Of a stretch of DNA of 64,000 nucleotides, positions 21,171 to 60,600 are shown piece by piece; the first letter of the stretch is position 1; each line of letters opens with the position of its first letter. The stretch is from NCBI RefSeq assembly GCF_022539665.2, contig NC_081334.1, positions 1,302,001-1,366,000 on the forward strand, in the 5' to 3' direction. The position numbers and the translations under genes were made by a program. The notes below the pieces were generated by a model. The model was given only the letters and a program-made list of their open reading frames with translations, did no database searches and was not told the DNA's origin. The DNA is from Daphnia carinata. Taxonomy: Eukaryota.

Positions 21171-24062
21171 CTAATGTCGTCTGTCATGTCTGCTGCTTGA
21201 AATGTAAACTGCTAAATTCGTTTTTTCTTAACTCCGCTTGCTGTTTTCCCGTACACGTTAGCGTAGTCCTGAGCACGTACTGAACTCCACGCTGACAGTC
21301 CTTGAAAAAACTTAGAAGTGCCGTGTAGCACGTGGATCAGAAATATCGGGATTCGACTGACATTCGTAGGTATGAATTTTTTTTTCAACTCCCAATTGTC
21401 CACAGTAATCAGTTATTCTTGGCTTGCAAATCAATAGATAATCTTAATATCTGATTAATTTAGAGATGGACAAATTTTGTTTGTCTTCGAAAAGATTAAG
21501 ATTTTAGTATTGAAATTAAACATCTGCCTTCGTTTTGATCTCTATATAATCTAAATAATAGACTGTTTTGTTCTGATATGAATTTTTCTGTCCAGGTTAC
21601 TTTATGTTGATGGACTTCGATTACAGCTGTAAAACTATACCTAGTACTTTAAGCATTTACAACACAAGAGCAATATTGAAGTTTCTATAAAAAATGCACC
21701 AGCATTCACAAGGGAGTGGGTTCACAGACTGACTAATGTTTTGATTTTGCCCTTGATCTACATAAGTTGTCTTTCAAACGGTAATATGATGTTTTATGGG
21801 CACCGTGTATAAAAGATCTTCATCAGCATTCCAGAAACTTCTTCACCGCAGCAGTTATCCTTTGGTAATAATCAGAAATTCTATGCATTTACGGAAAGAT
21901 CGAGGAATGATTGCTACAGGAACATGTATGAACCCTCAAAATCAGGTGTGATTTTGATCTCAACTCCTTTGGCCCTACGTTACCAACATCCTTTGGGTTA
22001 AAAAGCTACGCCTGAGAAATTTCATTAAGGAAAGATCAAATGTATTACTTTCTTTCGTTTGCAATCGGTTTCTCACTTCTAAGGTGCCACCAGCAAACTC
22101 AACAACCAGAGGAGTGCTAGGCATTTGCGGGTGAACGTGAAAATAGTTGACCGCCTGTTAATTGTAATTCCGAATTTTGCTTAAATTTTTATTTTCAATG
22201 GTGCATATACATAGTTGAGTTGCTGGTAATTGTAATAGCCATCATCCTCTGTTAAGTCCTTCAAAAATCGTAAGACCTATCAAGGTATAATTTTTCTGAG
22301 AACATTAAGAACCATCTTTGTTTCCTTCTAATATTTTTCTTCTCTCTAGGTTATTTCATGTTGAAAATTTACATTACGCCGAAAAATACACCAGCAGTCA
22401 GCCACCAGACAGTAGGTTTAAGAGGACTACCTTGCCTTGCTGAAAGTGTTAGGTTTCCCTAGGATCTGCGTCATCCGAAACATTCGACTGACTGTCTCCG
22501 ATTACGTATCTGCTGAAAGTTAATATGTCGTTGTATCGGGCAAGCAAGCTAAAGAAATAAAGTAAGATAAAACGGGGGGGGGGGGGGTTATAAATTATAA
22601 AACATGCTTCTCTGTTTGGGCCGATGCGACTTTTCTTTATTCGACGGAACATGCCATTTCAGTTGTGCCGATGGTTCGTGTTTGTGGTAAAACTGGCGCA
22701 TATTAGCTGATTACCATTCTTCCTTAGACAATGTCTTGTTTGTCACTCGTCCTTTATTTCTCGCAATCCCTTTCGGACAGCATCTTGCATGAGAAACTTT
22801 CACAGGGGAAATAGATTATCCGCTAATTTCTCTGGGATACTTTCAGCGTGTTTTATACTCTTTATATTTTATCGTTTGACTGTAAGGACTGGCGCGGAAA
22901 ACTAATGTCGTTCTTTTTTTTTTGTCATTTTCTTTGTTAAATTGTTATAAGCGCAAAGGGCACACAGGTGTACGCAATACCGGACCGCTTAGGTTTTAAA
23001 TGAAAATTACTATGTCCTGTGGTTTGGAATCATTATATGGCCGCGTATTCTATGTTGTATTTTCATTGGAATACCTAGGTTTTTGAATAAACAACCTGTT
23101 CCCTAATTCCTTTTGATTCGTTTTTATTGTGGTTGTAAACAAAAAAACTAGATGTCGCAGGTGTGGTTCCAAAATGGTGTTGTGATTACGTGTGACAGTG
23201 ATGTGAGCAGTGAAATCTGTGTTTGAAAGTTTTTGTTAAAAATGTTTTATTCCAGTGGGAAGTTATAAAAAAACTAACTACTATTAAGTGTTCTATTCCC
23301 TGTGAAGTTTTTGGAAGTGAAGCACACTAAATAGTTCATTTTTTATGTAACAGGCAATCTTGCAAGCTACCAATTCCAAACAGTGACAGATTGCTCTGCT
23401 ACAAAACTATGACCTTAGCATTCCAACGTGCTACTCTGTTGCTCTTTTTAGAGGTATTTTACTTTACATGGCCCTTAGTATACCATTTGGCATGATTCCG
23501 ACTTTAAGATCTAGCTTGTGAAACTTACAACAGGAAAAATGCTAACCAAGAGGAAGTACACCAACGAAGTGAATTCTTGGAATCATTACACCACTGTCCA
23601 ATTCGACTACCCTTTGCCCTAGTCATAAGAATCAGTTTTATTGTGGTAAATGCATCATGTTGCTCTTTGTTTGGTTTCCAATGAGTAACCACTACCAATC
23701 AACACACACAGACATGGACATCAAAACCAATCCCTTTTGGTATTTTATCTTGGAGGTTTATTTAGTATTGCTTTTTTAAAATTTATTTTCCCATTGTAGG
23801 GCTGCCAAGCTTTCAAGTTCTTCAGCCGAAATTACCAGCCCTTCAACTTTTGCAGTCTTCGAACAACAGGCTTAAGTAATTGTGTTCCCTGTTATAATTA
23901 CACCAATAATCTTATATTCCACATGTAGTCACACGTTTGTTTTCATATTCATTACTTAGAACTATGCCATCGTCTTCATTCTCACGCAAAATTGAAACAA
24001 AAATTCTAAGTTTTGCCCGTTCTTCGCTCCTTCATACGTCGTCACCAGGCTTTTCGCCCTGT

Positions 24063-24256
24063 CCGTCGCCCAGTCTTCGCCTCGCCCGTCGCCCCGTCTT
24101 CGCCTCGCCCGTTGCCCCGTCTTCGCCTCGCCCGTCGCCCCGTCTTCGCCTCGCCCGTCGCCCCGTCTTCGCCTCGCCCATCGCCCCATCTTCGCCTCGC
24201 CCGTCGCCCCATCTTCGTCTCGCCCGTCATCCTGTCGTCGCCGCGTCCGTTGCCCC
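24063..24256 (+). repeat. GC-rich minisatellite, ~8 x 23 bp (GCCCCGTCTTCGCCTCGCCCGTC)
   Basis: The tandem units are directly visible. Confidence 0.95.
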
Positions 24257-24314
24257 TTGGTCATCTTATCTGTGTGGTATGGTTATGTTTTGTAATGTAT
24301 GTAATGTATAATGT

Positions 24315-24633
24315 AAACTAACCCGTTGGCTGCCACCCACCTTTTATCCCCTTTTTTTTTTAGCTTGACAGGGACGGGCCGCGCTGTTCTGCTCCATGGT
24401 CTATCTGCCATGGGGTGGAGCAGCGCCACTGCCCAAGATTGGCCGAAAGGCCTGTAGGCAATGCACCACAGGGATTCCCTTGATCGATGCGCTTGATGAG
24501 ACCTGGGGTGTGCATTCCCGTAAAGGTCTCATCATCGTGTCAGCCCGGCCCCCCTGGCCCCCTTTATCGCTATCCCTAAGATAGCGATGTAGCGACTGTA
24601 GTTAAGATGGCGTGGCAGCCAACGGGTTAGTTT
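24315..24633 (+). ncRNA. Candidate structured RNA/ssDNA module A, enclosed by a perfect 22-bp inverted repeat
   Basis: IR 24315-24336/24612-24633. A 19-bp stem 24381-24399/24408-24426 has 4 G.U pairs on the + strand. Also a GGCC-GAAA-GGCC tetraloop, an 11-bp stem 24494-24504/24524-24534, and loop-loop complementarity AATGCAC/GTGCATT. Confidence 0.6.
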
Positions 24634-24763
24634 TAAGTGTATGTATGTATGTATGTATTGTATGTGTATTATGTAAAGTGGTGGATTTGAGGGTGGAAGG
24701 AGGGAAAATAAAAAGATTTTTAATTATTTATATTTGTATTTATTTTATTATATGGTGAATGAT

Positions 24764-24822
24764 TTGGGGATCGAACCCAAGGAATCTCACACGCTTATCA
24801 CGTGCTTTACCATCAATCTAAC
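24764..24822 (-). pseudogene. tRNA-like repeat (degenerate A box and B box)
   Basis: Minus strand reads TAGATTGATGGTAAAGCA...GGGTTCGATCCCC. There is no intact cloverleaf. Confidence 0.55.
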
Positions 24823-24918
24823 AACTATTCATTATCTATGAAAAAGCTATCCCATAATAACCTTGTATAGAACTCATTTCAACATACCCATAAAAATCTA
24901 AAGTTAGGTATGTAAGAA

Positions 24919-24988
24919 CAGTGATGGTACAAAGGTAGTGTGCTGGACTGTAGTGTTGAAGGTCTGTGGTTCAACTCCCAGGCCGGGT
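24919..24988 (+). pseudogene. tRNA-like repeat
   Basis: TGGTACAAAGGTAG...GGACTGTAG...GGTTCAACTCC has tRNA-type A/B-box spacing, but the stems are broken. Confidence 0.5.
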
Positions 24989-25127
24989 GCTATTGCTTGA
25001 CCGCCGATAAGCGCCCTAAAAGTTTCTGGAATGACGGAATCTGCATGAAGCCATCCGATCGTCGAGGAGAAAGAATTTCGTTATTTTGACATTTAAGGGC
25101 GTTTTGTGAAAAATATCGTGTCATATC

Positions 25128-25195
25128 GACTCTAAGTATTGAACCCTTAACCTTCGGATTCTGAAGCCGATGCTCTACCACTGAGCCATTTCACG
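25128..25195 (-). pseudogene. tRNA-like repeat (GAGCATCGGC type)
   Basis: Minus strand reads TGGCTCAGTGGTAGAGCATCGGCTTCAGAATCCGAAGGTTAAGGGTTCAATAC. Confidence 0.65.
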
Positions 25196-28100
25196 TATTT
25201 TAGTATTACTGTTACTAATAGCGAATGTAGGAGTAAGATTTGGACTTAGAAAAATAAAAGCAAACTGCCCTTTCGTTCACGGTCCATACACTGGCTCACT
25301 ACGCTGAACGCTTACCTTCCTTTGCCTGTACATTGCTTGGCTCGGAAGATCGTAGCCAGAACCCAGGCCCCTTGCCCAATGTGACAGACGTTTTTCAATT
25401 TTATCAGATATTGTACATGAGTTACAGAAAAATCCTAAATTTTTCTCTAGGGTATTTTCTACAGTACCGACAGCCCTTTTTCGTTTCTTCTGTCATTCGC
25501 CTGTGACGATGCTGACAAATTTTTCGTCGACAGAAAATTTGTGCATTTGACATGAAATTACAAATACAGCAAACAGAAAATAACCGTCTTATTCGTTATT
25601 TTCTATTTTTTTACAACCAAACCCACACAGATGTTGTATCTGTACATATAATTTGACTATATACACATGGCTTAGAATGGGAGACAACAATGAGATGTAA
25701 ATATAAATAATGTGTTCTACTTAGCTCTCAATTTCAGAAGAATGGAAGAAAAGAAAAAAATTACTGATTACTCACACGCGCAAAAAAAGAAGTCGTTTCC
25801 AGAGCAATTCTAGTTGTAAGCAACACCCTATTCCTGATGTGATGATTGCAGCAAAGCTCAGAAAAGGATCCATAGCATAACTCCAGACTGCAATCAAATT
25901 CACTGCTACTCACTTTCTGATCATTAATCACAAAAGTCGACTGTTGTTGAATGCAATAGGACAAATGCTGCAGGTGGAACTCAGTAACAACTGGAAGTGG
26001 AATAAAATGAACACACCAGTAGCTAGTACAGAAACACATGTAGCATATTCAAGTTGGTGAGGTGCATAAATTATTTGTTGCACACTAGTCAATGGTAGGT
26101 GCACTAATAGATTATCACTTGAAGAGGCTAAGCCTTTAACAAATCCTAAAGCCAAATGACATAACTTTAGACTAATAAACCATACTTCCATATAATGATT
26201 AAATAATACTTGCCTTTCTTACTCTTAGTTTCACACCATTATTGATATTGTCCTAAACCTTTTTCATCAATACCTTCCACACTTTTACCGCTGATGTAAA
26301 GTTGCTGACGAAGTCAGGAAAAATTCCAAGATCCACATTTATACGGATCTGATTTAATCACAGCATCACATGCACTCTGGTTTCAGCAATGAGAACAAAC
26401 CTATAAATCATTCTTGGCGTAAACATTCTCTGAATTCCTACTTTCTTTTTGCAGTGTTCTACAAAATACAACAAATGTTTTACTAAAATTAGAAAAGTAA
26501 ACTAACTTCGAGGAAAGCACTTGCCGTATACAACATCTTCAACGGCAAACAATAATCCTGAAGTCCCGGGACGCCTAGATGGTAAAATCCTATCCATCAG
26601 ATTTATTTGTATGGGATATACATTCAGATCTATGTCTACCGTCACGTCTGTCATGCATTTTCCACTGCACACGTGATTGGGAATAGCAGCTGTACAAACT
26701 TTGTAAGACTAATCGAATATGGGCTAGCTGTTGTTTTTGATGAGGGATCTCAATCACGAAGCTGACTCTTGCTTGCAGATGTGTTTGTCTATTTGAAGGA
26801 TTACAAATTTAATTGATTAGACGCAACGAGGTCGTCTACTTACCGAAAGCTGATTTACTAGCATTTTGCCTCGGAAATCACCCTTTTTCACACCGAGTCG
26901 CCCGACACAGCTGTTCTAATTTTCCCAACAAGAGATTGACAAAACCAAATTAATTTAAGTATGAAATATACAGCCATAACAATCCAGGTCTGCCAGATTT
27001 CGTATAAAAATCAAAATCTTACCTTTGAAATGCAAACTAAGAACGAAATGAATAGATAGAAAATTCGATTTTGAAGACCACTTTTGTTCGTGTCTGTCAG
27101 TACCGAATAGTTATTCATATCACTGTAAAGCCTTTAAATATTTCTGTAACCATGTGACTTCTTTAAACTACCTTAAGTTAGAACTCTGCAGAAAAACTTC
27201 TTCAATTACCTATACAGCAGTTCCTTCACATGTTTAAGGGAATTGCATTTCCTGCAAAGGCAAAAAGCATTAATGTAAAATTTTTACTTATCCGTTCTAG
27301 TAAAAATAAATTACTTTCAAGCAACTCCTTTGGGCATACATGCACTGGTTAAAATCATCCACCATTTTCACCGACCATAGACAATTTCAATTCAATTGGT
27401 ATGTCAATGCAAGTATCACAAATTCACCTGGGATAAATGGTATGCTCAGAAACCCCTTGAACAGTCTATGTAGTATCAGTCTCTCATACCTAAATACCAC
27501 AAAAGAAGTATCTCACAGCACATAGGCAATTCTTTAGGCATACATCCACAGGTTAAAAATTATTTGCATTTTAACAACCCAAAGCCAATTTTATTCAGGA
27601 GTGTATGTATGTCAAGGAAAAGATCACAAGAATCTCCACTTTACCTGGAAATAAACAATATGCTGGTCATTTCTCATTCACTGCAACATAATACATTTGA
27701 TGGTATTATAGATTGACTACCTGTATAAGGCATTACATTACAAATGTTGCTAGAAAACAATGATAACCTAAGAAATAGTATTTCATTCAAGTTACTATGA
27801 GAGTTCTATTAGTATGCAACTCACCTTAAGGAATTAAATACTTTAATGTTGCACAGCCAGCGCTATGTTTCACCACAACAATATCCAACAAGTAATTGTA
27901 CCTGAAAGACCACAAAACAGATGGAAAGTTGTAAACTACAGTACAGGTGATTTTTCCCACATCAATTACTTACAGAAGTAGTGTCCCTGTGGTTTACTAC
28001 ACGAGTCAAGAGGAAATTAGCTTACAAGTTCAAGCATTAACTTTAATTGTTAAGTAAAAATACCAAGATGTGTGGAAGTGAAATTATCCATGTCACAGCT

Positions 28101-28426
28101 GCTAGAACTTTCTGAACATCCAACTCTTACGCAAAACATTTTTCAATTCATTATCTTTCTTCATTTAACCTATATCGAGAAAATTAAACAAAGATCAGTC
28201 TAGAAAACGTTTGCTTGTCTAAGTTAATATATACCCGTAGAATTCATCGAATGCCAAGAATTTCTGACGAGCTTAAGGTAGCAGGCAACGCCACGTAACG
28301 GACATACCCAGTGAGGCTTGCAAGGAAATCTGTTGGCTATCAGGGTAAGTTGGATCTGAGCACCATACATCTGAGCACCATATATTGGTAGATTCGCACA
28401 CCACCTGTTGGAAAACAGCCCAAACA

Positions 28427-28654
28427 CCATCCAGTGGACGAAAAGGGAAGTAGCTTGCTTCCATCTAGTGGACGAAAAGGGGAGTAGCTTGCTTGCCATC
28501 TAGTGGACGAAAAGCGAAGTAACTTGCTCGCCATCTAGTGGACGAAAAGGGGAGTAGCTTGCTTGCCATCTAGTGGAAGAAAAGGCAACGAAAAGGGAAA
28601 TAGCTTGTTCGCCATCTAGTGGACGAAAAGGGAAGTAGCTTGCTTACCATCTAC
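28427..28654 (-). repeat. Tandem array, ~6 x 35 bp (CCATCTAGTGGACGAAAAGGGAAGTAGCTTGCTTG)
   Basis: Units start at 28427, 28461, 28496, 28531, 28566, 28612 and 28647. The minus strand reads CCACTAGATGGCR in most units. Confidence 0.95.
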
Positions 28655-31033
28655 GAGTTAAACAAACTTAATATTAAAATCATACTAGTTACAAGAAAAA
28701 TATTGCCTTGTTACCTTTCACGTACGCCACTTTCACCACCACCTCACTATTATCTGTTTGCGATTCTTGGAACAAGCAAACCAAGCTATGTAATAATAAA
28801 ATATCTTTGTTAATTAGCTAGCAGATTGACAGTAACCTGGAATAAATCACCAAAGTAAATGTTATTTTACTAAATAAGGAATATCATTCAATATTTGTGT
28901 GAACGTAGAACACAAATGTCAAAAAAACAAAAAGTTGGGTTAATGCACCCATAATCACCCATAACTAAAGCAGTATTATTTGCTATCAATTCTGGGACAG
29001 GCTAACAAAGCTATGTAGCTACATTATATTTTATGATCAGCTAGCAAAGACTGGCAGCAATCTGAAATAAAATATGAAAATTAATTTTGTTCTACTTTAA
29101 CATTAACACAATAGGACATAAAACTCAGAAAAACAAATAGTTGCTTAATTGATCCTTACTTTAACATTTTAGCAGTGACTTGCCCTTGATTGCTGATATT
29201 TGAAACCTAGTTTTCAACAAAAAGAAAGTTATGATTTATGCAGACTCAGATAAAATCTGCTGAACGTACTTTAATATGTTGAAAATTTGATGTCCTGCAA
29301 TTTCATTGCCCACTGGCTGTGATACTGTTTAGTCCTAAATAAGTGAAAAGAAATTTTCTTTTACACACATGCTTTAAAAATCAAATTATAAATACAAAAT
29401 CTAACGAATTAATTCAATTACAGTCATCATGGTACATACCGAAAGTCCCACATCCGCCGCAGTTAAAGAAACGCTGTTAAAAACTTCACAAGGTATACTA
29501 TCTGACGAAGAATTCCAGGGGTAGTGACGGCTGCATAAACCCGTGGGCCTGCACGTGTTACGATCTAGTGGCTCATCAGTACCCTAAAACTGACCATTTC
29601 GGTATATCACCATTTTACAGCGCCTGAGTGTTCAACTAGCTGTAACTGGTTTTTTACCACACTGGCATCCCAAGACACTTTCTCTTCTTCAATGCATTGT
29701 CGTATGAGCGTAGAATAACAGTAACGCTACCTAACCGTGACTCCCACTCACAGCCATGCGCGGCATCTAGTGGTGATTCACATCCGCAGCACATTTAATG
29801 AGATGACTAGCGGCAGCGCCAGCTTTTTATTATATGGTGGTCTAAAATTTTGAATACTGTTTGCGTATGGACATTTTCACAGAAACATCTCTGGACGTGG
29901 AACTGCACTTCTTTTCCAGCACTGTCTCCTGATATAAGTACCAAGTATCTAAAATGTAATAAATACCAAACCATCATCATTAGATGTTTCTTCATTTTCG
30001 GTTGCGACATTTAACATTGCAAACCCTTAAGGAAATCCATGGACATCCTAATTAACACCAGTACATATTTTCTGGCCATCTTCAATTGTCTTTATTGGGT
30101 AATTATTATGCTCTTCCTTCAACAAACAAAAATGAGGTTTTGTTCTGTAGTACTTACAAAAAAAAATGCTAACAAATAAAACTAAGTTAATAGCTAGTGA
30201 GTAGAACTAAATCTGCCATACCTTGTGTAAATGAGTGCACACAACATTCCATCCATGCTGCCAATAAATGGCATTTCTAGCACAACTGGAAATAGCCTGA
30301 AACTTGAAAAATTTTCTTGCTCAAATTATTGATTACATTTTAAAAACCAACTCCTATAACCTCTTACATTTTTTTAGTAACATTTTAAAAAACTTCAATT
30401 AAAAAATAACAACTGTATCAAACTTCAGCATCAATACCTGTTTAACTTAGGCAGATAAGACAAAATAACCAAATTGTGCCAATGTCAATAACTTTCAACT
30501 TCACATTTCAATACTTCATTGTTGGATAGGGCATAGGAGTTAGTCGATTAAAAGGTTTGGCACTTTGTAATACCACTCTGTGCAGGAAATGTGCCTTGCT
30601 GTCCCCAAGATAAAAAAAACCATTTTAAAATACAAAGTTTAAATGCTGATTTTCTTTGAGTGCCAGAAAAAAAAAAGAAAAGAAGCATATTAACGAATTG
30701 AACTAACTTCAATCTTTTACCTTTTTCGGAGATATTACACTCGTCAGTGTCTTTTAATAACTTCAGCTTTCCGGTGTTCAAAAGCTTCCTGTTCAAATTA
30801 GGATACCCAATTTTCGCAACATACGTGTGCAGTTGTAAAATTTCAATTTCTAGTATTATCAACGATTTTTTTTTTGCTTCCCATAGAATCTTATCGTTGA
30901 CGTTCATGGCACGGTTAAAAAAAATATGGAATGGTGATGAAGAGAGCGTGGCGTAGGCTTTAAGATGTTTCTGAACTCTTAAGCTCTGAACACGTTGGCC
31001 GCCATGTTGAAACTACGAGTCTAACGCTGTAAC

Positions 31034-32812
31034 CAGTGTTTCCACTTTCCGCAAAGGTATCCCTAGAACGTTGCCAGACTTTAAAAAAATAAAATCCCCA
31101 GAAAAATCCCTGTTACTTTCATGGCATACTCACATGGCCTACTATAATAACGGCCTGCAAGCGGCCTGCAGCGCCCTGCAGCCTAAAACTGCATTGTAAC
31201 ACCCCAAACTTAAACACTGTTTGGTAACGAATTTTCCGGAAATGGGAAACGAAAAACAGTGGAAAGTGGAACCTAGCACCGGTGTTAGATACAAAAACTT
31301 ACGGGTAGCGAATTGGGTCACATATCCCGATGATAAGCTGCCTGCATCCACGAGCCGTCTTTCAGGCCGTGGGGAGGCTAACGAACAGCCTACGTTCAAC
31401 GCTCACCTTTTCTCTACCTTTCAGCTTGTGGTTCGATCTTCAAGGTAGTACAGTACTACAGATCGATTTTTAGCCTGGCAAGGCTATTTTTGCCAATTTT
31501 AGCCTGGCAAGGCTTTTTTTTGGTGTGCCATTTAGCCCCTTTATAGTAGGCATGGCTCTTCTTTTTTCTCTTTTCTTTTCTCTCTTCTATTTTTCTTTCT
31601 TCTTGTTTTCTCTTCTTTTTTCTCTTTTCTTTTTTCTCTCTTCTTTTTTTTTTTCTTGAAGGCTTAGAATCTTGCGTCTTGATCTGTTGTAGAAGCTTGC
31701 GTAATCCGATGAATCTTGCGTATCTTGAATGAAGATTTGGAGGGAAAGGGAGGGGGGGAAATTGGCGGTGTCGGGACTTGAACCCGGGGCCTTCAGAATG
31801 CGAAGCGAAGGTGGTAACCACTGTGCCAGGACCGCACACCTCAAACAAATTTATTTTTCATCGACCTTCGTTCTAATACCGGAACTATATAATATGTGAC
31901 TAATAGTGGTGTCGCGCTGTGATAGGGCGCTGTGGTATAGCACTGAGATCATACGTCGACTGTCCGTGTTCGGTTCTTATAGACGCCATTGCTTCAAAAA
32001 TTTTTTTATTATTTTTATAAATGTAAATAAAAAAAATAAAATAACCCATTTTATTTATTTTAGAACAGTATTAAAAAAACACATTTTTAAAGCAATTAAC
32101 CAGTGTCCGTCAAAGCCAAACAAGTTACCAGAAAAATTTAAATTGGCTATGGAAATAAAACCATCGGATTGCCCCATCATATTTGTTTAGTTAAGCAATA
32201 AAGATATGGTTTTTTCCAAAAATAATTGTCATCGAACTTTCAACGTTATAAAGCCTCAAGAGAATCACAGCGTTTCCCAATGAACAGTGTGTTGCTCACC
32301 TAGATAACAAAATTGTGTGAGAGGCCTCGGGTTCATCATGTCTCAACAACACATTGTTCATCATGGTTGAACAAAATAGATTCGTAATTCCTACGTATAT
32401 ATTCAAGGAACTCTCCCCAGCTTTTGCAATTGGGTCAAGTGCTTGTCAGAAATTCAGTCGGAGACTTGAGTCTTAAAAAATTCGGCGTGCGATATGTTTG
32501 GCACAGACGTTTGGAGGATCAAATGGAGTTCGTGGTGTATCCTAGTCAGTGTTACTTTCTGAAAAGCGTACCGTTCACCATTGTCCGCTTGGTGGCTCTT
32601 ATTGAGGAACATTTTACTTTTGACGTTGCATAGAAGCGCCAAAAGCAACAGCGGTTTGGCCAAAAATCTCAAAATCCCGAGAAATCCCCAGAAAATTAAA
32701 TAGGCCCTGGATAATCCCGGAAACCCTAGATTTCCATAACTGCACCCTAGATTCCAAAAATTTTCCTTAAATCCCCCTAAATAGGGTAATATCCCTAGAA
32801 GTGGAATGGCTG
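31034..32812. mobile_element. Non-autonomous cut-and-paste DNA transposon (hAT- or P-type)
   Basis: 8-bp TSD GCTGTAAC at 31026-31033 and 32813-32820. Imperfect 14-bp TIRs CAGTGTTTCCACTT / CAGCCATTCCACTT. Subterminal ATCCCTAGA/AAATCCCCAGA motifs occur at both ends. No transposase ORF. Confidence 0.8.
31763..31835 (-). pseudogene. tRNA pseudogene / tRNA-derived repeat (CGC anticodon-like loop)
   Basis: 73 nt GCGGTCCTGGCACAGTGGTTACCACCTTCGCTTCGCATTCTGAAGGCCCCGGGTTCAAGTCCCGACACCGCCA. A and B boxes are present; acceptor and anticodon stems are mismatched. Confidence 0.7.
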
Positions 32813-32934
32813 GCTGTAACGTACCAGTGAGGTAAAATTAACTCCTGATTTGCTGGCATTTAGCAGTGTTGCACTTCTACTGAAACTGAAAACTCAACCA
32901 AATAAATTAAATACTTTAAAAATAAATTTGTTTT

Positions 32935-32983
32935 CATTAGAGCATGGCCTAATATAATCATTATAGTAGGCCATGCATTAGAG
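32935..32983. mobile_element. 33-bp transposon footprint (two fused 16-bp TIR stubs) with 8-bp TSD
   Basis: CATTAGAG-[CATGGCCTAATATAAT C ATTATAGTAGGCCATG]-CATTAGAG. Confidence 0.8.
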
Positions 32984-34628
32984 ACTAAGACGAGTCACCA
33001 CCCACCATTTCATTAATTAGAAAATATTTCGATGTGGCAATGTTGTCGGTGTTGATTGTCAATTTGAATACTGCCACCTTTATTCCTTTTAATCCTTTTC
33101 CTAGAAAAGCAAAAAATATTATTTATTAATTTATGGCACGAACAACGTTTTGTTTAAGTTTTTTTTTATTTTTAGTTTCAAAACGAAAAATTACAATGGA
33201 AGTATCAAAATTTCAATGACAACAAAATGGTTGGATAGAAATAGTTCACTAATTAGCGGAAAAACTGCTTTTTCCAAAACGCAGGTGATGGCAGAGAGAT
33301 AGCCATTCAAAGTGGTATTTTATGTAGGCAATTCAACTATTCATTTTCTTACCTTTATTTGTGCTTTGAGCCTACATTCATTTTCAAAGACTGAATGATT
33401 TCTCTGCTAGATTGGGCAGAATCACATGTTTGTTATTCTGCGGCTGATGTTTGGTTGGCTTTGTAAATTCATTTCATTTACTTAATGTTCCAGGCTTCAT
33501 TGATTCTGTTAAGCGGATGAATAGCCTAGCTGTTATTAAAGGCTATAAATGGATAGAAAGTAAAGCTAATGAGGCTTGTTTAGCTGTCCACTAAGTTACC
33601 AAAATTTCCCAGTGATAAATTCATGTGCTGGAAAATCAAATTAATTTACTTTATAATTTGGTTTCAGGTTTTATGTTTTATTCTTGATTTGATTCAAAAA
33701 TCCACTAACTGTTTGCTGACCAACTCTTTCAGGCACAACCTATCAAAGATTTCACAGCCACACACATTTAAAAGCATTGTGGCAAATAACAAATGATCTA
33801 CATCAGCAAAAGCAGTGTGCTGTATTCTAACAACACCATTCAAAGATTTCATGAACATAATGAAAATCTGTTTTTCAGTCTTCATCGGAAATGACATGAC
33901 AGCAGAAATTGAAAGGGAACTTTTACCTTTTTATTGGTCGTAAAGAAAGGTTTAGTTGTAAAATGCATCCACAGTAGGTGTACCACAAAGTTTTCATATT
34001 AAGTTAAACTAATACTACATAAAAAAGATTTGTATAATTTCCCTTACTTTACCAGCAGGCAACGCGTTAATCTGTCACGAAGTTGTCCCATGGTCGCTTT
34101 TTAATTGTACATAATTTAAAATGCCTTTACATTATGAATTTGAAATTTAAAAATTCATTTAAGAGACAAGACACGGACTTATTTCGACTGAACACACTAG
34201 GAGCAGAGCAGGAAACAAGAATGCAGTCTAGCGGAAGAATAAATGACACGAGTAACGTTTCCAGAAATTCAAAACGATTTCTCAATTTTGATTTAATTTT
34301 ATGTCTGGTTACAAATTCATGATTTCGATTGAAAATTTAAAGAAAATCACTCAAATCTATGACAATAGGACGAATAGGTTCACAGCACGCCAGTCACAAA
34401 TTTGCGAGACAGACCACGTTTAGGATTTAACACAAAAAAAGGAAAAGGAAAAAACCCCTAACCTCCTCTTACTTCTTTAATTCGTACTCCGCCTATTGAA
34501 CTTGGGTTTATTTCATTTGGAAAGTGAAAATAATATTTTTTTTTATGTTGTGTTATATTGAGACGAAACATTTACACGTATTTATATTGTGAGTATTGTT
34601 GTAGGTATACAATTTGTTCGTGAAGAAT

Positions 34629-44398: not shown

Positions 44399-46140
<1,742 letters not shown>

Positions 46141-52283: not shown

Positions 52284-53061
52284 TTATCTTCCTTCTAATT
52301 GTTTGTCTCTTACAATGACTGATTCGTCAAACTTGATCATATATGTTGTTCCTTTGTGCCAGTGGGCTGTGACTTTTGCAGGCTGGAATTAATTAAATTA
52401 CAATAAAATTCTTCTGTTGTAGGGAATTGAGAAATACTCACAAAATTGCTAGTATTCAAGATTCCTTCAATGATACCAGCACTAAAGGCAGCACAGTTGA
52501 GGTTTCCTTTATCCTTGGGGACAGAAATAAATCTGTTCACTAATGATTCTTTTTCAATAAGGTAATAAGTATGATCATCATCGTTGGCATGTTCAAGTTT
52601 ATCTGCTTCTTTCCCGAACAATGACTAATAAGAAAATTATTAGTAGGAATAGCTACTGCATACCATATTTTAAAATTTTCACAATATTTTTTCTGGATTA
52701 GTTACCTTCCACACAGTTGATTTAATGAAAATCAAAATTTGCAGTAATTTTATCTCTCGTTTGCCACTCTTTTCTCTGACAATTAGCAAATCAAGCATCC
52801 GGACTCCAACTTGTTGACCAAATTCTGAAAGCCTGCAATTGTTCCCAACAAAATATTATACGAAATAGGGAGCTACATCAATTCAAAGTGATAGAAACAC
52901 ACCACTTACTTGGCCTGTAGCTCAGGTACAGTGGATACCCTGTTTTGGCAATATTGTACGATTTCTGAGAATAATAGAGCAAATCCATTCAAACTGACTT
53001 CGTTTTTCCCTTTACTGATAGATCGATCAAGAATGGTAGTTTTCAGTTTGAGGGATGACAT
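52284..53061 (-). CDS. TRAPPC5: Trafficking protein particle complex subunit 5
   Basis: ILDRSISKGKNEVSLNGFALLFSEIVQYCQNRV; FGKEADKLEHANDD; LVNRFISVPKDKGNLNCAAFSAGIIE; AKVTAHWHKGTTYMIKFDESVI. Confidence 0.96.
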
Positions 53062-53132
53062 ACTTTTCCACTGTAAAATAACCAGTCAGTCAAAACAGAA
53101 GCATCGCAGCGCCATCTACTATGACTGAAAGA

Positions 53133-53198
53133 AATTTTAAGCCCGACGAAGTAAGCCCGAATAAAGTCGGGCTTATTTATCAGTCGGGCTTAAAAATT
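53133..53198. repeat. Short nested palindrome of TAAGCCCGA units (2 direct, 2 inverted)
   Basis: TTTTAAGCCCGAC-GAAG-TAAGCCCGA-ATAAAG-TCGGGCTTA-TTTATCA-GTCGGGCTTAAAA. Confidence 0.85.
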
Positions 53199-53460
53199 TT
53201 TTCGGCAAAAACTGACACTCATCGGAAAACGTTGAATATCACAGGATATTATGGCAATCCGTTTTACATAAAAAAAAAAAAAAAAAAATGGCGGAAAAAA
53301 AATTAAAAATCGCACTTTTTTCTTTTTTTCCGACACGTAGCCATCTACCGCTCAGACTCATTATTACTGGCGTAGGCAATTTCAGTCCATTGGATGCCAT
53401 TCGCAGTTAGTTCAGTAGCGTGGATGGAGAATAACGCGTGGCTGGAGGAACAATTGAAAA

Positions 53461-54058
53461 ATGGATAAGATAATACAACAAAAGGATGGTAAGTATAAAC
53501 ATTATTATATTTGCTTTTATTCATTTGTGTTTTGTAGCTCAAAGTTTGAGTCTACAAGCTCAGCTAGGGGAAAAGAACAAATTGGAACGGAACAGTTTCC
53601 AAACAGTGAAGGAGGTTTTTCCAAACTCAAACCTAACTGAACATGAGGATGAATTGGCATTAGGCGAACACAGTCAGGTACCTAAACTTTTCAAATAAGA
53701 ATTCCAAATAAGTATAGAATTTTAACAAACAATTATTTATTGTTTAGTTATTCAGTCTACCACCTGACAGTGTGTTAAATTTAAATTCTGTTAGTGCTGC
53801 ACAAAAAGAATCGTTAGTAATAAGCCCATGCAGTGAAGGAAGTGAACAATTGTGGGACCGTATTTGGGCCGAAAATGGGTGTGGTACGGAAACCAAGATA
53901 TGGCACAAGTTCAACATGAAACATGGATTAGGTACTTTTCGGTTTTATGTCTATTGAAAAAGTATTTTTAATGTTATTATTTTGCATTCACAGAATTTAA
54001 TGGGGGATCAAATCAAGTCTGGAAGTGTTACAGGATGGAAGAGTCAGCCTACAGATGA
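53461..54058 (+). CDS. Orphan spliced ORF in left arm (lacks one exon relative to right arm); may be a pseudogene
   Basis: MDKIIQQKD|AQSLSLQAQLGEK...|LFSLPPDS...WDRIWAENGCGTETKIWHKF...|EFNGG...YR* joined by GT-AG introns. No domain was recognised. Confidence 0.45.
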
Positions 54059-54800
54059 AAAAACACTGAGAGTGCATTACCATTAAGGTATGAGGTAAAG
54101 TAATAGAGTATGCACATTGTCTAATGAGAAGTACCATCTTGTGTTAATAAATCCAGTACAACAGCAATCCTTTATAGTTCTGTCACAGCTAGAAACCTCA
54201 AATAATTCTGCTTCTCTGTCTAAAGAATAACTTGTCCTTTACGTTCAGAGTGTTGGTGAAACTGGGTACTTAAATGGCCCTAAAGATGTTTTAATTTTGC
54301 TGCCATTGCAGAGATGAACATCATACATGGACTCTTTAGGTATGAAAGGATTTTTCTTCAAATAGTTTTGAATTTATGACGAAGAATTTCTCCTCCTTTT
54401 TGCCAACCAGGTCTAATCTACCAAAAAAAAAATTATCCAATAGGAAAGGATTTTCATGTACTGGGAACACAACTATCAACAATGCAACATTGTACAGGTG
54501 CTAGTTTATCATTCAAGAGCCTTATACAATGATGTTAATCTGCAATTTGTATGTCCTTCCCCAAGCTTCCACCAGAAGTTGAATCTATGAGTCATGTAAG
54601 TTACATGATCAACAGTTGATATGTTTAACGGTGTTGTTTTTCTTTTCTCAATATAGGTTAATAGTAACATTGGATCTGAAAAAATTCTTGGTTGGGGCAA
54701 GACACTGAATAAATTGTATTGATTGGATGGATGACATGACATTTCTATACTTAATTCGGATTCCCCAGACGGTATTTGATATTTAAAAAATTGAAGTGCA

Positions 54801-55135
54801 TATCTGGGCTCCCTTCTTTTCTGAAGCCCCGTTTCCCCTTGACTCGTAATAAGCCCGTAGGGGGTCATGCCCCTACTGTACGGTATATATAAAAACAACA
54901 TATACCGAGGTTTGGAGGGCTCTGGCCGGAAAGGGGACGTGGGGTGCCGCTTAGTCCGATGATGTGTTCACGGAGGGCTCTGTGGCTACCCACAAATCCG
55001 AACTAAAGGTTAATCGCTCCTGTAAAAATGTTCCAAATCTTCAGCTCTTCTTCCGGCTTCTCTTAGCCAATCACCGGGTAATCTCCCCGGTGGGTCAACA
55101 AGGCAGTGTCTCCCCCTGCCTGGGTTGACGGCAAC
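54801..55135 (+). ncRNA. Candidate structured RNA/ssDNA module B, copy 1
   Basis: Stem 54826-54840/54931-54945 has 14/15 pairs with 3 G.U on +. Hairpins lie at 54857-54876, 54881-54907, 55072-55092 and 55094-55129. It is a GC-rich island in AT-rich DNA. Confidence 0.55.
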
Positions 55136-55460
55136 TTTTGAAAGGGTTATTGTGCCTTTTTAAAGTTGCAAAAATAATTGTAATGTGCAGAGAATTGTCA
55201 ATAAATTTTTTTTTATAAAATTTTTTTGCAAAATTTGTTTCCTTCATTGTCTGTGTTCACACATTACATTTATCAACTTTTTTTTTATTCAGCTTGCGCA
55301 ATTCAATTTTATTGTTTTTGCCACCGTTGTATCGTTTATCTGTAAGTATTCAATTATTATTTATTACACTTTTTGAATCCATGAACTTAGACAAGGAACA
55401 ACGTGTAATACCTTGATATTTTCTGAAGTAATTTTGTATTTGTATATTGTTTTACTGGTA

Positions 55461-55868
55461 CGGGAATCGATCCTCAGACATTCAGCGTGCAACGCCGATG
55501 CTCGAACATTGAGCCACGAGATATATATAAATTTTTTATTATCGCATATCATATGTTATCGTCTAGGATGTTTATGCAGTCTTTCACAACTATATGTTTA
55601 TCTTTGTATCGCTTTTATAATGTCCATAGCTCTGTGGTAGAGCATTCAGCTGCGATAACTGTTACCCTGGGTTCAAACCTTACTAGATGTATAAAAATCT
55701 ACATCTAAATGGAGAAAATAATATTGCAGTATTGCATTTCAGTTTTATTCAAAGTGTAAATGCAAGTCCGCAAGTGACTAGAAAAAAGCCAACTTGACAT
55801 CATATGATTCATGGCTCATTGGTAAAGCATCGGCGCGGAATGCCGAACATCTAGGGTTCGATCCCTGG
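55461..55868. repeat. Cluster of three tRNA-like repeats in the palindrome spacer (55461-55519 -, 55625-55685 +, 55810-55868 +)
   Basis: A-box-like TGGCTCAATGT/TAGCTCTGTGG/TGGCTCATTGG and B-box-like GGATCGATTCC/GGTTCAAACCT/GGTTCGATCCC occur at tRNA spacing. Confidence 0.7.
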
Positions 55869-56117
55869 ATAATAATTGAATGCTTACAGATAAACTATGC
55901 TTACAGGAAACAATGCTTACCATTAAACGTGGCATAAACAATAAAATTGAATTGCGCAAGCTGAATAAAAAAAAAGTTGATAAATGTAATGTGTGAACAC
56001 AGACAATGAAGGAAACAAATTTTGCAAAAAAATTTTATAAAAAAAAATTTATTGACAATTCTCTGCACATTACAATTATTTTTGCAACTTTAAAAAGGCA
56101 CAATAACCCTTTCAAAA

Positions 56118-56452
56118 GTTGCCGTCAACCCAGGCAGGGGGAGACACTGCCTTGTTGACCCACCGGGGAGATTACCCGGTGATTGGCTAAGAGAAGCCGG
56201 AAGAAGAGCTGAAGATTTGGAACATTTTTACAGGAGCGATTAACCTTTAGTTCGGATTTGTGGGTAGCCACAGAGCCCTCCGTGAACACATCATCGGACT
56301 AAGCGGCACCCCACGTCCCCTTTCCGGCCAGAGCCCTCCAAACCTCGGTATATGTTGTTTTTATATATACCGTACAGTAGGGGCATGACCCCCTACGGGC
56401 TTATTACGAGTCAAGGGGAAACGGGGCTTCAGAAAAGAAGGGAGCCCAGATA
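56118..56452 (-). ncRNA. Structured module B, mirror copy in right arm
   Basis: Reverse complement of 54801-55135. Confidence 0.55.
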
Positions 56453-57194
56453 TGCACTTCAATTTTTTAAATATCAAATACCGTCTGGGGAATCCGAATT
56501 AAGTATAGAAATGTCATGTCATCCATCCAATCAATACAATTTATTCAGTGTCTTGCCCCAACCAAGAATTTTTTCAGATCCAATGTTACTATTAACCTAT
56601 ATTGAGAAAAGAAAAACAACACCGTTAAACATATCAACTGTTGATCATGTAACTTACATGACTCATAGATTCAACTTCTGGTGGAAGCTTGGGGAAGGAC
56701 ATACAAATTGCAGATTAACATCATTGTATAAGGCTCTTGAATGATAAACTAGCACCTGTACAATGTTGCATTGTTGATAGTTGTGTTCCCAGTACATGAA
56801 AATCCTTTCCTTTTGGATAAAATTTTTTTTGGTAGATTAGACCTGGTTGGCAAAAAGGAGGAGAAATTCTTCGTCATAAATTCAAAATTATCTGAAGAAA
56901 AATCCTTTCATACCTAAAGAGTCTATGTATGATGTTCATCTCTGCAATGGCAGCAAAATTAAAACATCTTTAGGGCCATTTAAGTACCCAGTTTCACCAA
57001 CACTCTGAACGTAAAGGACAAGTTATTCTTTAGACAGAGAAGCAGAATTATTTGAGGTTTCTAGCTGTGACAGAACTATAAAGGATTGCTGTTGTACTGG
57101 ATTTATTAACACAAGATGGTACTTCTCATTAGACAATGTGCATACTCTATTACTTTACCTCATACCTTAATGGTAATGCACTCTCAGTGTTTTT

Positions 57195-57926
57195 TCATCT
57201 GTAGGCTGACTCTTCCATCCTGTAACACTTCCAGACTTGATTTGATCCCCCATTAAATTCTGTGAATGCAAAATAATAACATTAAAAATACTTTTTCAAT
57301 AGACATAAAACCGAAAAGTACCTAATCCATGTTTCATGTTGAACTTGTGCCATATCTTGGTTTCCGTACCACACCCATTTTCGGCCCAAATACGGTCCCA
57401 CAATTGTTCACTTCCTTCACTGCATGGGCTTATTACTAACGATTCTTTTTGTGCAGCACTAACAGAATTTAAATTTAACACACTGTCAGGTGGTAGACTG
57501 AATAACTAAACAATAAATAATTGTTTGTTAAAATTCTATACTTATTTGGAATTCTTATTTGAAAAGTTTAGGTACCTGACTGTGTTCGCCTAATGCCAAT
57601 TCATCCTCATGTTCAGTTAGGTTTGAGTTTGGAAAAACCTCCTTCACTGTTTGGAAACTGTTCCGTTCCAATTTGTTCTTTTCCCCTAGCTGAGCTTGTA
57701 GACTCAAACTTTGAGCTACAAAACACAAATGAATAAAAGCAAATAAATAGAATCATTATGTATTAGGCCTTACCATCCTTAGCTTTGCTGTTATCTAATA
57801 TTTTGTGCTGTTGCAATAATTGAGCCTGCAGGTCCATAATTTGATCTAATAAACAATAATTAATAATTCAAAACAAATATAATAATGTTTATACTTACCA
57901 TCCTTTTGTTGTATTATCTTATCCAT
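57195..57926 (-). CDS. Orphan spliced ORF in right arm (5 exons, coiled-coil-like N-terminus); may be a pseudogene
   Basis: MDKIIQQKD|DQIMDLQAQLLQQHKILDNSKAKD|AQSLSLQAQL..., with in-frame GT-AG introns. Confidence 0.45.
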
Positions 57927-59060
57927 TTTTCAATTGTTCCACCAGCCACGCGTTATTCTCCATCCACGCTACTGAACTAACTGCGAATGGCATCCAATGG
58001 ACTGAAATTGCCTACGCCAGTAATAATGAGTCTGAGCGGTAGATGGCTACGTGTCGGAAAAAAAGAAAAAAGTGCGATTTTTAATTTTTTTTCCGCCATT
58101 TTTTTTTATTTTTTTTATGTAAAACGGATTGCCATACATATCCCTGTCCTCTCAAAAGCGATGTGGCCAACACTATGCACTCCATCCATGAGTATTCAAG
58201 GTATCTATTTTTACGGTGTGGTAAAAAGGCTAGGTTTTTAACTTGTGTATTGATACATTTCTAAACAGGATTAGTTGCAAGTTGGTAGATCGCGTCTTGT
58301 ATGCTAACTTGCTAACAGCCATGGATCTAGGTAATTTTTTTGGAATTTACTAGTAGTATTCAGGCCATAGATTTCCATATGTTTACCATATAGGTATGAG
58401 CAACCACAAAGGCTTGGGACACTGGTTACATGTTGTTTTGGTGCATACCTAAAAAAAGTGGAATTTATGAGCTGTTTGACATGACTGTTCTCTGTTAGCA
58501 AACTTGGTTTTTATGTACATCAAAACTTAATACCATTTAACTCAGATATAGCCATCACAGTTTAATTTAAATATTTTTTATTATCATTTTTAGCTCAAGT
58601 GAAAACAAGGATGATGGTTGTTGGAATAATTTTTGCAACAGCTGCGTTTCTGAAAGTGAATGAAGTGTCTGTTTGTTTGGTAAGAAGCAGTGTTTTTAAT
58701 TTGTGTTATTTATCTTGACTGGTACTCGTTAATGATCACTTTCAATATTCTAAGTAGAAATCCGTTTGAAGCCTTTCCCAGCAACAGTCCATATGACGCA
58801 CGCGAAGTAAAGTACAGGAAACAATATGTCGGAGTATCAGGCAGTATCAAGTGGTCTATTTTACCAAGCATTAGCATCATCTAAAACTCAAACACTATTT
58901 GATTTTGCTAAAGATAGTGTATGGAAGAAGATATGGGAAAGTGTATTGATGGATGCATGCTGCCAAAAAAAATTATATTAGATGAAAGGACGACCGAAGA
59001 TCTCCGGATTCATTCATTTTCTCCAATGTTATGGTATTTAAATTAATATATTTCAGTGTA

Positions 59061-59374
59061 TATCTGGGCTCCCTTCTTTTCTGTGGCCCCGTTTCCCCTT
59101 GACTTGTGATAAGCCCGTAGGGGGTCATGCCCCTACTGTGATCAGCAGTAACGGTTGTGAGTGCGCTGTCCGGAAAGGGGACGTGGGGGTCCCCATGGTT
59201 CGATGATATCATTGGAGGGCTGTGGGGCTACCCAAAAATCCGAATTAACGGTTAATCGCTCACGTAAAAGCTTGTCCGCAACCTTCGCTCTTCTTCCGGC
59301 TTCTCTTAGCCACGCACTGGGTAATCTCCCCGGTGGGTCAACTGAGGCAGTGTCTCCCCCTGCCTTGATTGACC
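59061..59374 (+). ncRNA. Structured module B, diverged copy
   Basis: Clearly homologous to 54801-55135. The main stems are retained, internal segments are replaced, and the flanks align only weakly. Confidence 0.55.
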
Positions 59375-59542
59375 GTATTATCTCATGTGTACTGAGATCT
59401 CAATAAAAGAAATAGAAAATAAAAAACGTTTGTAACTACTGACTTACGTAAATTGTAATTATTACGCTGAGGAATCGTGTCTTGAACATTGAAATTTTGA
59501 TAGCTGATAGTGTAATGTTAATCAAGGTTACTACTACCTGTA

Positions 59543-59860
59543 GGTGGGACTCGAACCACCAACGAGATTTTACCATCACAACGCTCGTGAATCTTAACTG
59601 GAAATCATCACACATTACACATTACAATTCAACTCATTTGGGATTCGAACCCTAGACTTTCGACTTACGACGCCGATGCTCAACCACTGAGCCTTGAGTT
59701 TTGTTTGTTTGTGAATATTTCTCTATGTCACCAAAAAACGAGTGATTACTTAAAAAAGTACTGGAAGATACAAAAGTCAACGATATTAGGGGAGGATAGA
59801 TAGCTCAGTGATAGAGTATTGGCTTGATAAGTTAAATGTCGAGTGTTCAAACCGCAGTTT
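59543..59860. repeat. Cluster of tRNA-like repeats (B box 59543-59560 -, 59640-59697 -, 59800-59860 +)
   Basis: Minus strand GGCTCAGTGGTTGAGCATCGGCGTCGTAAGTCGAAAGTCTAGGGTTCGAATCCC; plus strand TAGCTCAGTGATAGAGTATTGGC...TGTTCAAACC. Confidence 0.7.
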
Positions 59861-60600
59861 GGTGAAATGAAGGGGAAAAAGATTTTAGTATTGCACGAAT
59901 TATTCATTGGTGAACGTATCTTAAGAAGTTGTTATAACTAGAAAGTTTAAAACTGATTTCATTGCCGGTACATCAGATAACATTCGGTTTAGCCACGAAT
60001 TACTGAAATAAGCGGTCAACTTACGAAAAATAGAAAAAAAAAGGTGGGTCAAAAGACATTTAGTAGTCCTGTAGTCAATTGATCAATGAAGAAAACAGAT
60101 GATGTTCAATAAGGATGTGTATATCCGATAATTTTCTGTACCGACAATACTGAAATATATTAGGTAAGTACAAAATAGGTGGAAGGATACTCAAAAAGAA
60201 ATTTACCCGTAGGCTTCCAAATGGATTGTGTGCGACAAATATACATAAAAATAGCAGACAGCTGATCAGGTAAACATTCTGGAAGTGGGCAATTAGAAAA
60301 ATCCACTATAAAATTTACAAATTCAATTAGAGCTTCTCATTTCATATAACTTGTTGGGTTTTCTTTTGTAAGTAATACATGGGGAGCTAAAAGGACCATA
60401 GCCGGAACCTAAAGTGAACAGCAACACTGATCACATTCACCTCGTACTAACACACAACAGTACGGCTAAATTACAACCGAATTGTTTATGAAGAATTTAA
60501 ATTAGAGATTTTTCCGTTTAACCTCTGCCTTACTTCCCATCATGAGCAGTGATAATCAAGGCGGTAGGTAACAAAACCGTGATGATGAAAGCAAATCAAA

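What the first reader, a model, noticed from the sequence alone, without database searches (positions are those of the whole stretch)
23140..59900. Recurrent cassette: spliced orphan unit, then folded RNA-like module, then tRNA-like repeat cluster
Seen in sequence: the same order occurs at ~23.1-25.2 kb (module A), 53.3-55.9 kb (module B, mirrored to 58.1 kb) and ~58.2-59.9 kb (module B). Each has an AT-rich unit without a recognisable domain (splice structure clear at 53.5 kb, only suggestive at the other two), then a ~320-nt GC-rich multi-stem module whose G.U pairs mostly favour the same strand, then three tRNA-like A/B-box repeats in mixed orientation. A tRNA-like type with core AGCATCGGC is shared by all three loci, and TGTAATGT words lie next to each module. 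Modules A and B have no visible sequence similarity but occupy the same slot. Inference: this is a mobile element family with an interchangeable structured RNA (ribozyme, 3' processing/stability element) or ssDNA origin, plus TFIIIC/Pol III-type sites. I cannot assign it to a named superfamily.
Basis: partly seen in the sequence, partly recalled or inferred. Interest (0 to 1): 0.85.

Follow-up and report, generated by a model that had tools for sequence, protein, structure and literature searches.

The report
Water-flea gene cassette with folded tail
In a Daphnia carinata-type water flea, repeated intron-containing genes are transcribed and spliced, end in a conserved segment predicted to fold as RNA and are followed by decayed tRNA-like repeats; together they likely form an apparently undescribed mobile cassette copied as DNA by an enzyme not yet identified.

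Summary
The order unit > module > tRNA-like cluster is real at all three loci: 8 of 9 A/B-box hits in the window lie within 800 bp behind a module. The 53-58 kb unit belongs to a Daphnia carinata multicopy family (15 protein clusters, 96 sequences, at least 8 chromosome-scale contigs) that shares only one ~47-aa exon with a separate D. magna multicopy family. One RNA-like run shows it spliced, with hundreds of divergent contigs, and bridges unit B2 to its module. Module A is also a diverse transcribed family: fixed closing stem, variable interior, one compensatory change. Module B keeps a sense-strand kink-turn with compensatory changes between two copies (too few copies for significance). The tRNA-like units keep both boxes and spacing, mostly not the cloverleaf, and lie beyond the poly(A) signals. 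No ribozyme, Rfam family, transposase, TIR or TSD was found. Best reading (0.45): a non-autonomous DNA-copied cassette with an RNA 3' stability module and a TFIIIC-type boundary. No genome was held, so genome-wide linkage and termini are untested.

The parts
23140..24050 (+). Unit A: AT-rich, candidate small introns, no convincing ORF
   Evidence: sequence; the one frame of 62 aa or more inside it has no Pfam hit; splicing not tested
24053..24256 (+). GC-rich tandem array, 23 bp x 8.4
24315..24633 (+). Module A: multi-branch fold closed by a ~25-bp stem; member of a diverse transcribed family
   Evidence: z -10.6; 73 contigs laid on 24262-26400, 53 under 95% alike; 4 of 5 joints inside the module land at 24607-24609; compensatory pair 24571/24583 in one contig
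24635..24712 (+). TGTA-rich tract and AATAAA (24707): likely poly(A) region
   Evidence: 8 TGTA in 76 nt against about 4.6 per kb; AATAAA position; UGUA/CFIm role recalled
24756..24827 (-). tRNA-like unit
24918..24989 (+). tRNA-like unit, divergent from the previous one
25124..25195 (-). tRNA-like unit, AGCATCGGC type
   Evidence: 2-4 variant contigs that continue into the flank
53127..53203 (.). Nested palindrome between the host TRAPP gene 5' end and the left arm; membership in the element uncertain
   Evidence: z -11.4; no partner at the right end
53243..55324 (+). Left arm: promoter region, spliced gene (ATG 53461, stop ~54057, about 138 aa inferred; a 134-bp deletion removes exon 2), 3' exons, module B1
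54796..55129 (+). Module B1, with a predicted kink-turn at 54958 and two 3' hairpins; AATAAA at 55200
55452..55523 (-). tRNA-like unit, AGCATCGGC type, antisense behind the left arm
55620..55691 (+). tRNA-like unit
55805..55876 (+). tRNA-like unit, AGCATCGGC type, antisense behind the right arm; 71% like the 55452 unit
55929..58147 (-). Right arm: five-exon gene 57926-57195 matching the 162-aa D. carinata protein P0047 (89-100% per exon), 3' exons, module B (56124-56457, kink-turn 56295)
58148..59055 (+). Unit B2: unrelated to the B1 gene, no long ORF, introns 58331-58593 and 58680-58757 skipped in X1
59056..59373 (+). Module B2, predicted kink-turn at 59202; AATAAA at 59402 and 59418
   Evidence: contig 58914-59089 bridges unit and module
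59535..59612 (-). Partial tRNA-like unit (perfect B box and T arm, no A box at the usual spacing)
59630..59701 (-). tRNA-like unit, AGCATCGGC type; the only one that folds as a cloverleaf (1 of 6 folded)
   Evidence: Rfam tRNA 36.3 bits; ARAGORN finds no gene
59794..59865 (+). tRNA-like unit, divergent from the previous one

Best explanation
These loci are likely copies of a non-autonomous mobile cassette that is likely copied as DNA: a spliced passenger gene ends in a conserved module predicted to fold as RNA and likely to stabilise the transcript, and is followed by decayed tRNA-like repeats that likely bind TFIIIC and act as a boundary. Shown: the passenger at 53-58 kb is multicopy, dispersed, intron-containing, transcribed and spliced; module B follows two unrelated units; module A keeps its closing stem across divergent transcribed copies. 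Inferred: Pol II reads the unit through the module and stops at AATAAA; module B's kink-turn binds an L7Ae-family protein such as 15.5K; the tRNA-like cluster, which lies between convergent 3' ends at all three loci, blocks read-through or silencing; a transposase acting in trans moves the whole block, most plausibly a rolling-circle type because no TSD is seen and the cargo is exon-shuffled; 5' cargo is swapped by recombination while the tail is kept.
For: 14 clusters / 95 sequences, all D. carinata, 82-98% identical, on contigs of 8 different lengths from 7.9 to 14.4 Mb; 15 clusters / 96 sequences with the profile. C-termini end anywhere from 102 to 162 aa, as in decaying copies. A D. magna family (6 clusters, 24 sequences) shares only the ~47-aa exon. 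The B block sits between two host genes, TRAPP and a cofilin/ADF-type gene. 881 contigs of X1 lie on 55330-62500, 427 under 95% alike, with GT-AG joints at 7 predicted introns. Introns are kept in the DNA and the cluster lies beyond the poly(A) signals, so an mRNA intermediate would not carry it. Kink-turn pattern at all 3 module B copies and 1 other site in 128 kb; in 46 chosen pairs all 92 cells pair, 2 with changes on both sides.
Against: No TIR, subTIR, TSD or Helitron-type 3' end in the flanks tested. No TE domain in 56 open frames of 62 aa or more. Two B copies cannot give significant covariation (138 of 500 shuffles reach it), and both the structure and the kink-turn pattern were chosen after seeing the sequences. 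Whole module B2 folds no better than shuffles. Spacers between the divergent tRNA-like pairs show no similarity across loci, and A and B share no sequence. Expression rests on contigs of one run, whose depth cannot rank expression. Linkage of modules and clusters is seen at three loci only.
Confidence: 0.45

Rival explanations
1. No transposase: unit plus module spreads by non-allelic gene conversion or circle recombination into pre-existing tRNA-relic clusters, as wtf genes do at dispersed 5S rDNA.
For: The arms are 99.5% identical yet each ends in its own AGCATCGGC-type unit, only 71% alike: new sequence on older tails. No termini found. PMC9562144 passages describe wtf duplication to pre-existing Pol III repeats.
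Against: The tRNA-like units are short and only 42-75% alike, a poor substrate for recombination; clusters lie on one side only; protein clusters of 30 and 39 near-identical sequences look like bursts.
Confidence: 0.2
2. The module is the cis signal for a Penelope-like reverse transcriptase that copies unspliced RNA in trans, keeping introns and making inverted copies.
For: Intron retention, trans-mobilised host genes and inverted copies are PLE traits (PMC3846280 and PMC8557442 passages); the module is pLTR-sized; some PLE clades lack hammerheads.
Against: The module occurs only at the 3' end, not at both ends; no TSD; no hammerhead; the inversion is tail-to-tail around a ~600-bp spacer, whereas head-to-head is the usual form; the cluster lies beyond the poly(A) signal.
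Confidence: 0.15
3. Ordinary parts side by side: a lineage-specific host gene family with a conserved 3' UTR, two unrelated structured repeats, and tRNA pseudogenes or SINE heads that gather in repeat-rich patches.
For: A and B share no sequence; Daphnia genomes are rich in tRNA-derived loci and duplicated orphans (recalled); the arms are one duplication, so only three loci are independent.
Against: 8 of 9 tRNA-like hits lie in 4% of the window, always downstream and with the nearest unit antisense; module B sits behind two unrelated units with identity peaking in the module.
Confidence: 0.15
4. The modules are single-stranded DNA origins or cruciforms.
For: Module A folds almost as well on the minus strand and has a long terminal inverted repeat; B1 folds better on the minus strand.
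Against: Sheared G.A kink-turn and wobble pairs on the transcribed strand; position in a last exon.
Confidence: 0.05

Closest known systems
Non-autonomous Helitrons / Helentrons (HINE, DINE-1; PMC4067079, passages read)
   Same: Interspersed, no coding capacity for movement, can carry gene fragments, internal tandem and microsatellite tracts, no clear TSD
   Different: No subTIRs or 3' stem-loop end found; a 320-nt exonic RNA module and tRNA-like clusters are not in the passages read
Penelope-like elements mobilising intron-containing host genes (PMC3846280, PMC8557442, PMC4209133; passages read)
   Same: Intron retention, variable cargo, a terminal structured segment of a few hundred bases, inverted copies
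   Different: No hammerhead, no repeat at both ends, no TSD; tail-to-tail inversion; tRNA-like cluster beyond the poly(A) signal
wtf gene family beside dispersed 5S rDNA in fission yeasts (PMC9562144, passages read)
   Same: Dispersed, intron-containing, fast-changing multicopy gene next to Pol III-type repeats; sequence homogenised between loci
   Different: Repeats here are decayed tRNA-like units on one side only; no sign of drive; a conserved 3' RNA module
3' stability elements of abundant RNAs (ENE, MALAT1 triple helix plus mascRNA) and box C/D or U4-type kink-turns (recalled)
   Same: Structured element at the 3' end; tRNA-like sequence downstream; kink-turn geometry
   Different: The nearest tRNA-like unit is antisense at every locus, so RNase P trimming as in mascRNA cannot apply; no Rfam match
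tRNA-derived SINEs (recalled)
   Same: A and B boxes at tRNA spacing
   Different: Units differ from each other (42-75%), have no shared body or tail, and T-runs on their strand would stop Pol III before the module

Membership tests
Penelope-like element | RT with GIY-YIG endonuclease, or an autonomous partner sharing the terminal repeat | tested here: inconclusive
   no such domain in 56 frames of the window; genome not held
Penelope-like element | pLTR at both ends, often with a TSD | tested here: not met
   module only at 3' ends; no TSD-like direct repeat at the flanks tested
Penelope-like element | Hammerhead motif in the terminal repeat (absent in some clades) | tested here: not met
   0 hits in 4 regions, both strands; 11 in the whole window (recalled descriptor); no Rfam hit
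Penelope-like element | Introns retained in dispersed copies | tested here: met
Helentron/HINE | 11-15-bp subterminal inverted repeats and a 3' stem-loop | tested here: not met
   no exact 11-bp inverted match in 5 flank comparisons; true ends are unknown, so the test is weak
Helitron | 3' hairpin followed by CTRR; insertion between A and T | tested here: not met
   3 CTRR-T sites in the 3' flanks, none with a stable hairpin (best -3.5 kcal/mol)
Helitron/Helentron | Rep-helicase partner sharing the termini | not testable with these tools
   no genome held
Cut-and-paste DNA transposon (hAT, Mutator/foldback) | TIRs flanked by a TSD | tested here: not met
   the 2.1-kb arms are inverted, but the bases flanking 53243 and 58147 are not duplicated (sequence)
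tRNA gene | Complete cloverleaf with acceptor and T stems | tested here: not met
   ARAGORN 0 genes; pairs kept D 30 of 32, anticodon 31 of 40, T 28 of 40, acceptor 32 of 56; 1 of 6 folds as a cloverleaf
SECIS element | AUGA/GA core followed by an 11-13-bp helix and apical AA (recalled) | tested here: not met
   only 2-3 pairs follow the G.A pairs; no Rfam hit
Standard kink-turn | Helix, 3-nt bulge ending in U, tandem G.A/A.G pairs (recalled) | tested here: met
   54958, 56295, 59202; sequence pattern only, binding not tested
Described Daphnia TE consensus (Repbase/Dfam) | Match to a consensus | not testable with these tools

The most novel reading that the evidence does not exclude
A new class of animal selfish element: an intron-bearing cassette whose constant parts are a protein-binding 3' RNA module (at least two unrelated, interchangeable types) and a built-in cluster of TFIIIC sites, carrying swappable cargo genes and amplifying independently in several Daphnia species by a mechanism outside the named transposon superfamilies.
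Probability: 0.2. Interest if true: 0.85.

Novelty: new variant of a known kind. Interest (0 to 1): 0.62.

Why it matters
Daphnia genomes are known for many young, duplicated genes with no relatives (recalled). A cassette that copies intron-containing, exon-shuffled cargo across chromosomes would explain part of that and would mean some annotated 'uncharacterized' families are passengers. It also offers two structured RNA families absent from Rfam, one with a 3'-UTR kink-turn, and a natural case of tRNA relics possibly kept as boundary sites. All key tests can be run on the public D. carinata and D. magna assemblies.

Tried and rejected
No genome for this window, so no genome-wide BLAST. Cluster look-up could not be made. 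Rfam at E<=1: no module hit. Pattern scans for module B: 0 in viral contigs, 0 in metagenomes. Module A: 1 viral hit, a chance match in a GC-rich phage-like contig; 25 metagenome hits, none extending beyond the pattern (BLAST over all 26 loci, 18 inspected by eye). Family profile in viral contigs: 39 pattern matches, none confirmed. Run search: no RNA holder listed; X1 holds 0.29 of the words and behaves as RNA, X2 laid nothing, which is no evidence either way. Zero cover over the 24756 and 24918 units is likewise not evidence. Pfam on family proteins: nothing above cut-off (one search gave only a fragment of GDC-P, just below cut-off, on the unshared part of P0075). Atlas best score 0.77, chance level; the second Atlas query did not complete. 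AlphaFold models were low confidence (pLDDT 46.6 both); Foldseek found no match; PDB sequences none; the wide fold search had not finished when I submitted. My impression that the D. magna relatives carry a ubiquitin-like domain plus zinc finger is recalled and unconfirmed. Considered and dropped: hammerhead, SECIS with read-through (family C-termini are not conserved), mascRNA-type processing, SINE reading from the minus strand, hAT termini, telomerase-like pseudoknot and triple helix in module A (suggestive pairings only). Earlier scan findings: nothing on this genome or sequence; word hits were unrelated. Paper searches listed no description of this cassette; the library lacks most subscription journals, and no supplements were read.
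Full report
Setting. The window is small-intron animal DNA with host genes for a C2H2 protein, GCP2, a glutaredoxin-like protein, importin alpha and a cofilin/ADF-type protein and a TRAPP subunit at 52.3-52.6 kb. No genome is held. A 61-aa exon at 53748-53930 matches Daphnia carinata proteins at up to 98%, so the source is D. carinata or a very close relative.

Observation. Self-BLAST gives the inverted arms and an 80% match between modules B1 and B2. The arms run 53243-55324 and 58147-55929 with 10 mismatches in 2081 aligned bases and one 134-bp deletion in the left arm. An A/B-box scan finds 9 tRNA-like units, 8 of them in the three clusters and all 8 with 43-nt spacing; shuffles give 0-1. 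These 8 lie in the 4% of the window just behind module ends. At every locus the nearest unit is antisense to the module, and every locus holds a divergent pair about 90 bp apart; the spacers of those pairs are not alike. Modules A and B show no convincing similarity.

The units. The right arm is a five-exon gene matching the 162-aa protein P0047; the left arm lacks exon 2. The family has 14 clusters and 95 sequences in the first search and 15 and 96 with a profile, on contigs of 8 different chromosome-scale lengths. Sequence counts include isoforms and are not locus counts. Members stop anywhere between 102 and 162 aa. A D. magna family (6 clusters, 24 sequences) shares only about 47 residues, one exon, and continues with different sequence. 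A search with that protein found 13 representatives: its own relatives and two members of the D. carinata family. No domain or fold could be assigned. Unit B2 and unit A show no similarity to this gene and no long ORF.

Transcription. One run, X1, labelled 'DNA?', holds the region. It behaves as RNA: a 1268-nt contig skips three introns of the host cofilin-type gene. On 55330-62500, 881 contigs were laid, 427 under 95% alike. Seven joints match GT-AG introns on the unit strand, five in the right arm and two in unit B2. Cover runs through the module and falls near the AATAAA; a contig at 58914-59089 bridges unit B2 and its module. On 24262-26400, 73 contigs were laid, 53 under 95% alike. Four of five joints inside module A jump to the 3' strand of the closing stem, so relatives keep the stem and vary inside. 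A 1117-nt contig carries a module A variant preceded by about 790 bases unlike this locus. Contig depth cannot rank expression, and this is one sample.

The modules. Module A folds at z -10.6. Its first hairpin has 20 pairs, 5 of them G.U on the sense strand. One contig changes both sides of pair 24571/24583 and turns another pair into G.U; of the 13 variant positions checked, 7 are unpaired, 3 keep pairing and 3 break a predicted pair. Module B as a whole is not unusually stable, but its middle arm and 3' hairpins are. The middle arm holds a standard kink-turn pattern in all three copies and at one other place in 128 kb. Between B1 and B2 all 5 variable pairs among 46 chosen stay paired, 2 by double change. 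With two sequences this is not significant (138 of 500 shuffles), and pattern and structure were picked after inspection. There is no Rfam or hammerhead match. The TGTAATGT words sit in TGTA-rich tracts near AATAAA and are most simply UGUA poly(A) enhancers (recalled).

The tRNA-like units. ARAGORN calls none; Rfam scores one above threshold. D stems are nearly intact, acceptor and T stems are decayed, and anticodon loops of the four AGCATCGGC-type units are only 40% alike while their A boxes are 81% alike. They are relics that keep promoter boxes. Each cluster lies between convergent 3' ends: module A and a minus-strand transcript whose contig ends near 25631, the two arms, and module B2 and the host cofilin-type gene. 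Each arm ends in its own AGCATCGGC-type unit, and these two are only 71% alike although the arms are 99.5% alike. Either the arms were homogenised recently or new sequence was copied onto older tails.

Mechanism. Dispersal, bursts of near-identical proteins, ragged stops, exon mosaicism and a position between two host genes point to a mobile cassette. Kept introns and a cluster beyond the poly(A) signal point to copying as DNA. I infer a stabilising RNP role for the module and a TFIIIC boundary role for the cluster; neither was tested. No termini, TSD or mover were found. I give 0.45 to a transposase-moved DNA cassette, 0.2 to wtf-like recombination into tRNA relics, 0.15 to Penelope-type trans-mobilisation, 0.15 to unrelated parts side by side and 0.05 to ssDNA origins.

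Comparison with what is known. I read selected passages, not whole texts, of PMC4067079 (Helentron termini), PMC8557442 and PMC3846280 (PLE structure and intron-containing cargo), PMC4209133 (PLE hammerheads) and PMC9562144 (wtf and 5S rDNA). The cassette works like a cargo-carrying non-autonomous element but fails the terminal tests for each family as far as they could be run. Ten paper searches listed no description of it. Repbase and Dfam could not be consulted, so it may already exist there as an unclassified repeat.

Verdict. Its mobility mechanism and genome-wide coherence remain unproven. Interest 0.62.

Noticed in passing
window 18180-18430 and 28427-28653: Two tandem arrays (50 bp x 5; 35 bp x 6) that each repeat a CTCF-like word (motif recalled), in opposite orientations, bracketing the 18-29 kb patch that holds locus A; the same core occurs at 53112, 53341 and 58046.
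   Followed up: no
window 31559-31835 (minus): tRNA-like head (44-nt box spacing) followed about 100 bp later by an A-rich tail: looks like an ordinary tRNA-derived SINE.
   Followed up: partly
window 25631-26400 (minus): A 1153-nt contig of X1 matches with no differences and skips 68 nt: an apparently spliced, domain-less transcript converging on cluster A.
   Followed up: partly
window 53127-53203: Nested palindrome of AAGCCCGA repeats (z -11.4) upstream of the TRAPP gene; TAAGCCCG also occurs inside every module B.
   Followed up: partly
window 54055-54530: By my reading, past the first TGA the left-arm frame stays free of TAA/TAG across three further predicted exons, stopping only at TGA; it may be a remnant of a longer ORF. 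Family C-termini do not conserve it.
   Followed up: partly
window 55869-55929: Junction of the right arm carries a 16-bp unit x 2.5 and a 27-bp inverted match to 55334-55360, resembling template-switch repair.
   Followed up: partly
window 57774-57926 (minus): Exons 1-3 of the family gene end or begin with near-duplicate sequence, suggesting exon duplication; X1 also shows an alternative acceptor giving a 73-nt first intron.
   Followed up: partly
window 17200-22500 and 26400-34000: Long stretches with intron-like signals, internal near-duplications (27328/27532, 28745/28971) and no Pfam domain: possibly more decayed cargo units.
   Followed up: partly
window 58820-58978: A 53-codon frame in unit B2 that reminded me of an ionotropic-receptor ligand-binding segment; Pfam did not support this.
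   Followed up: yes
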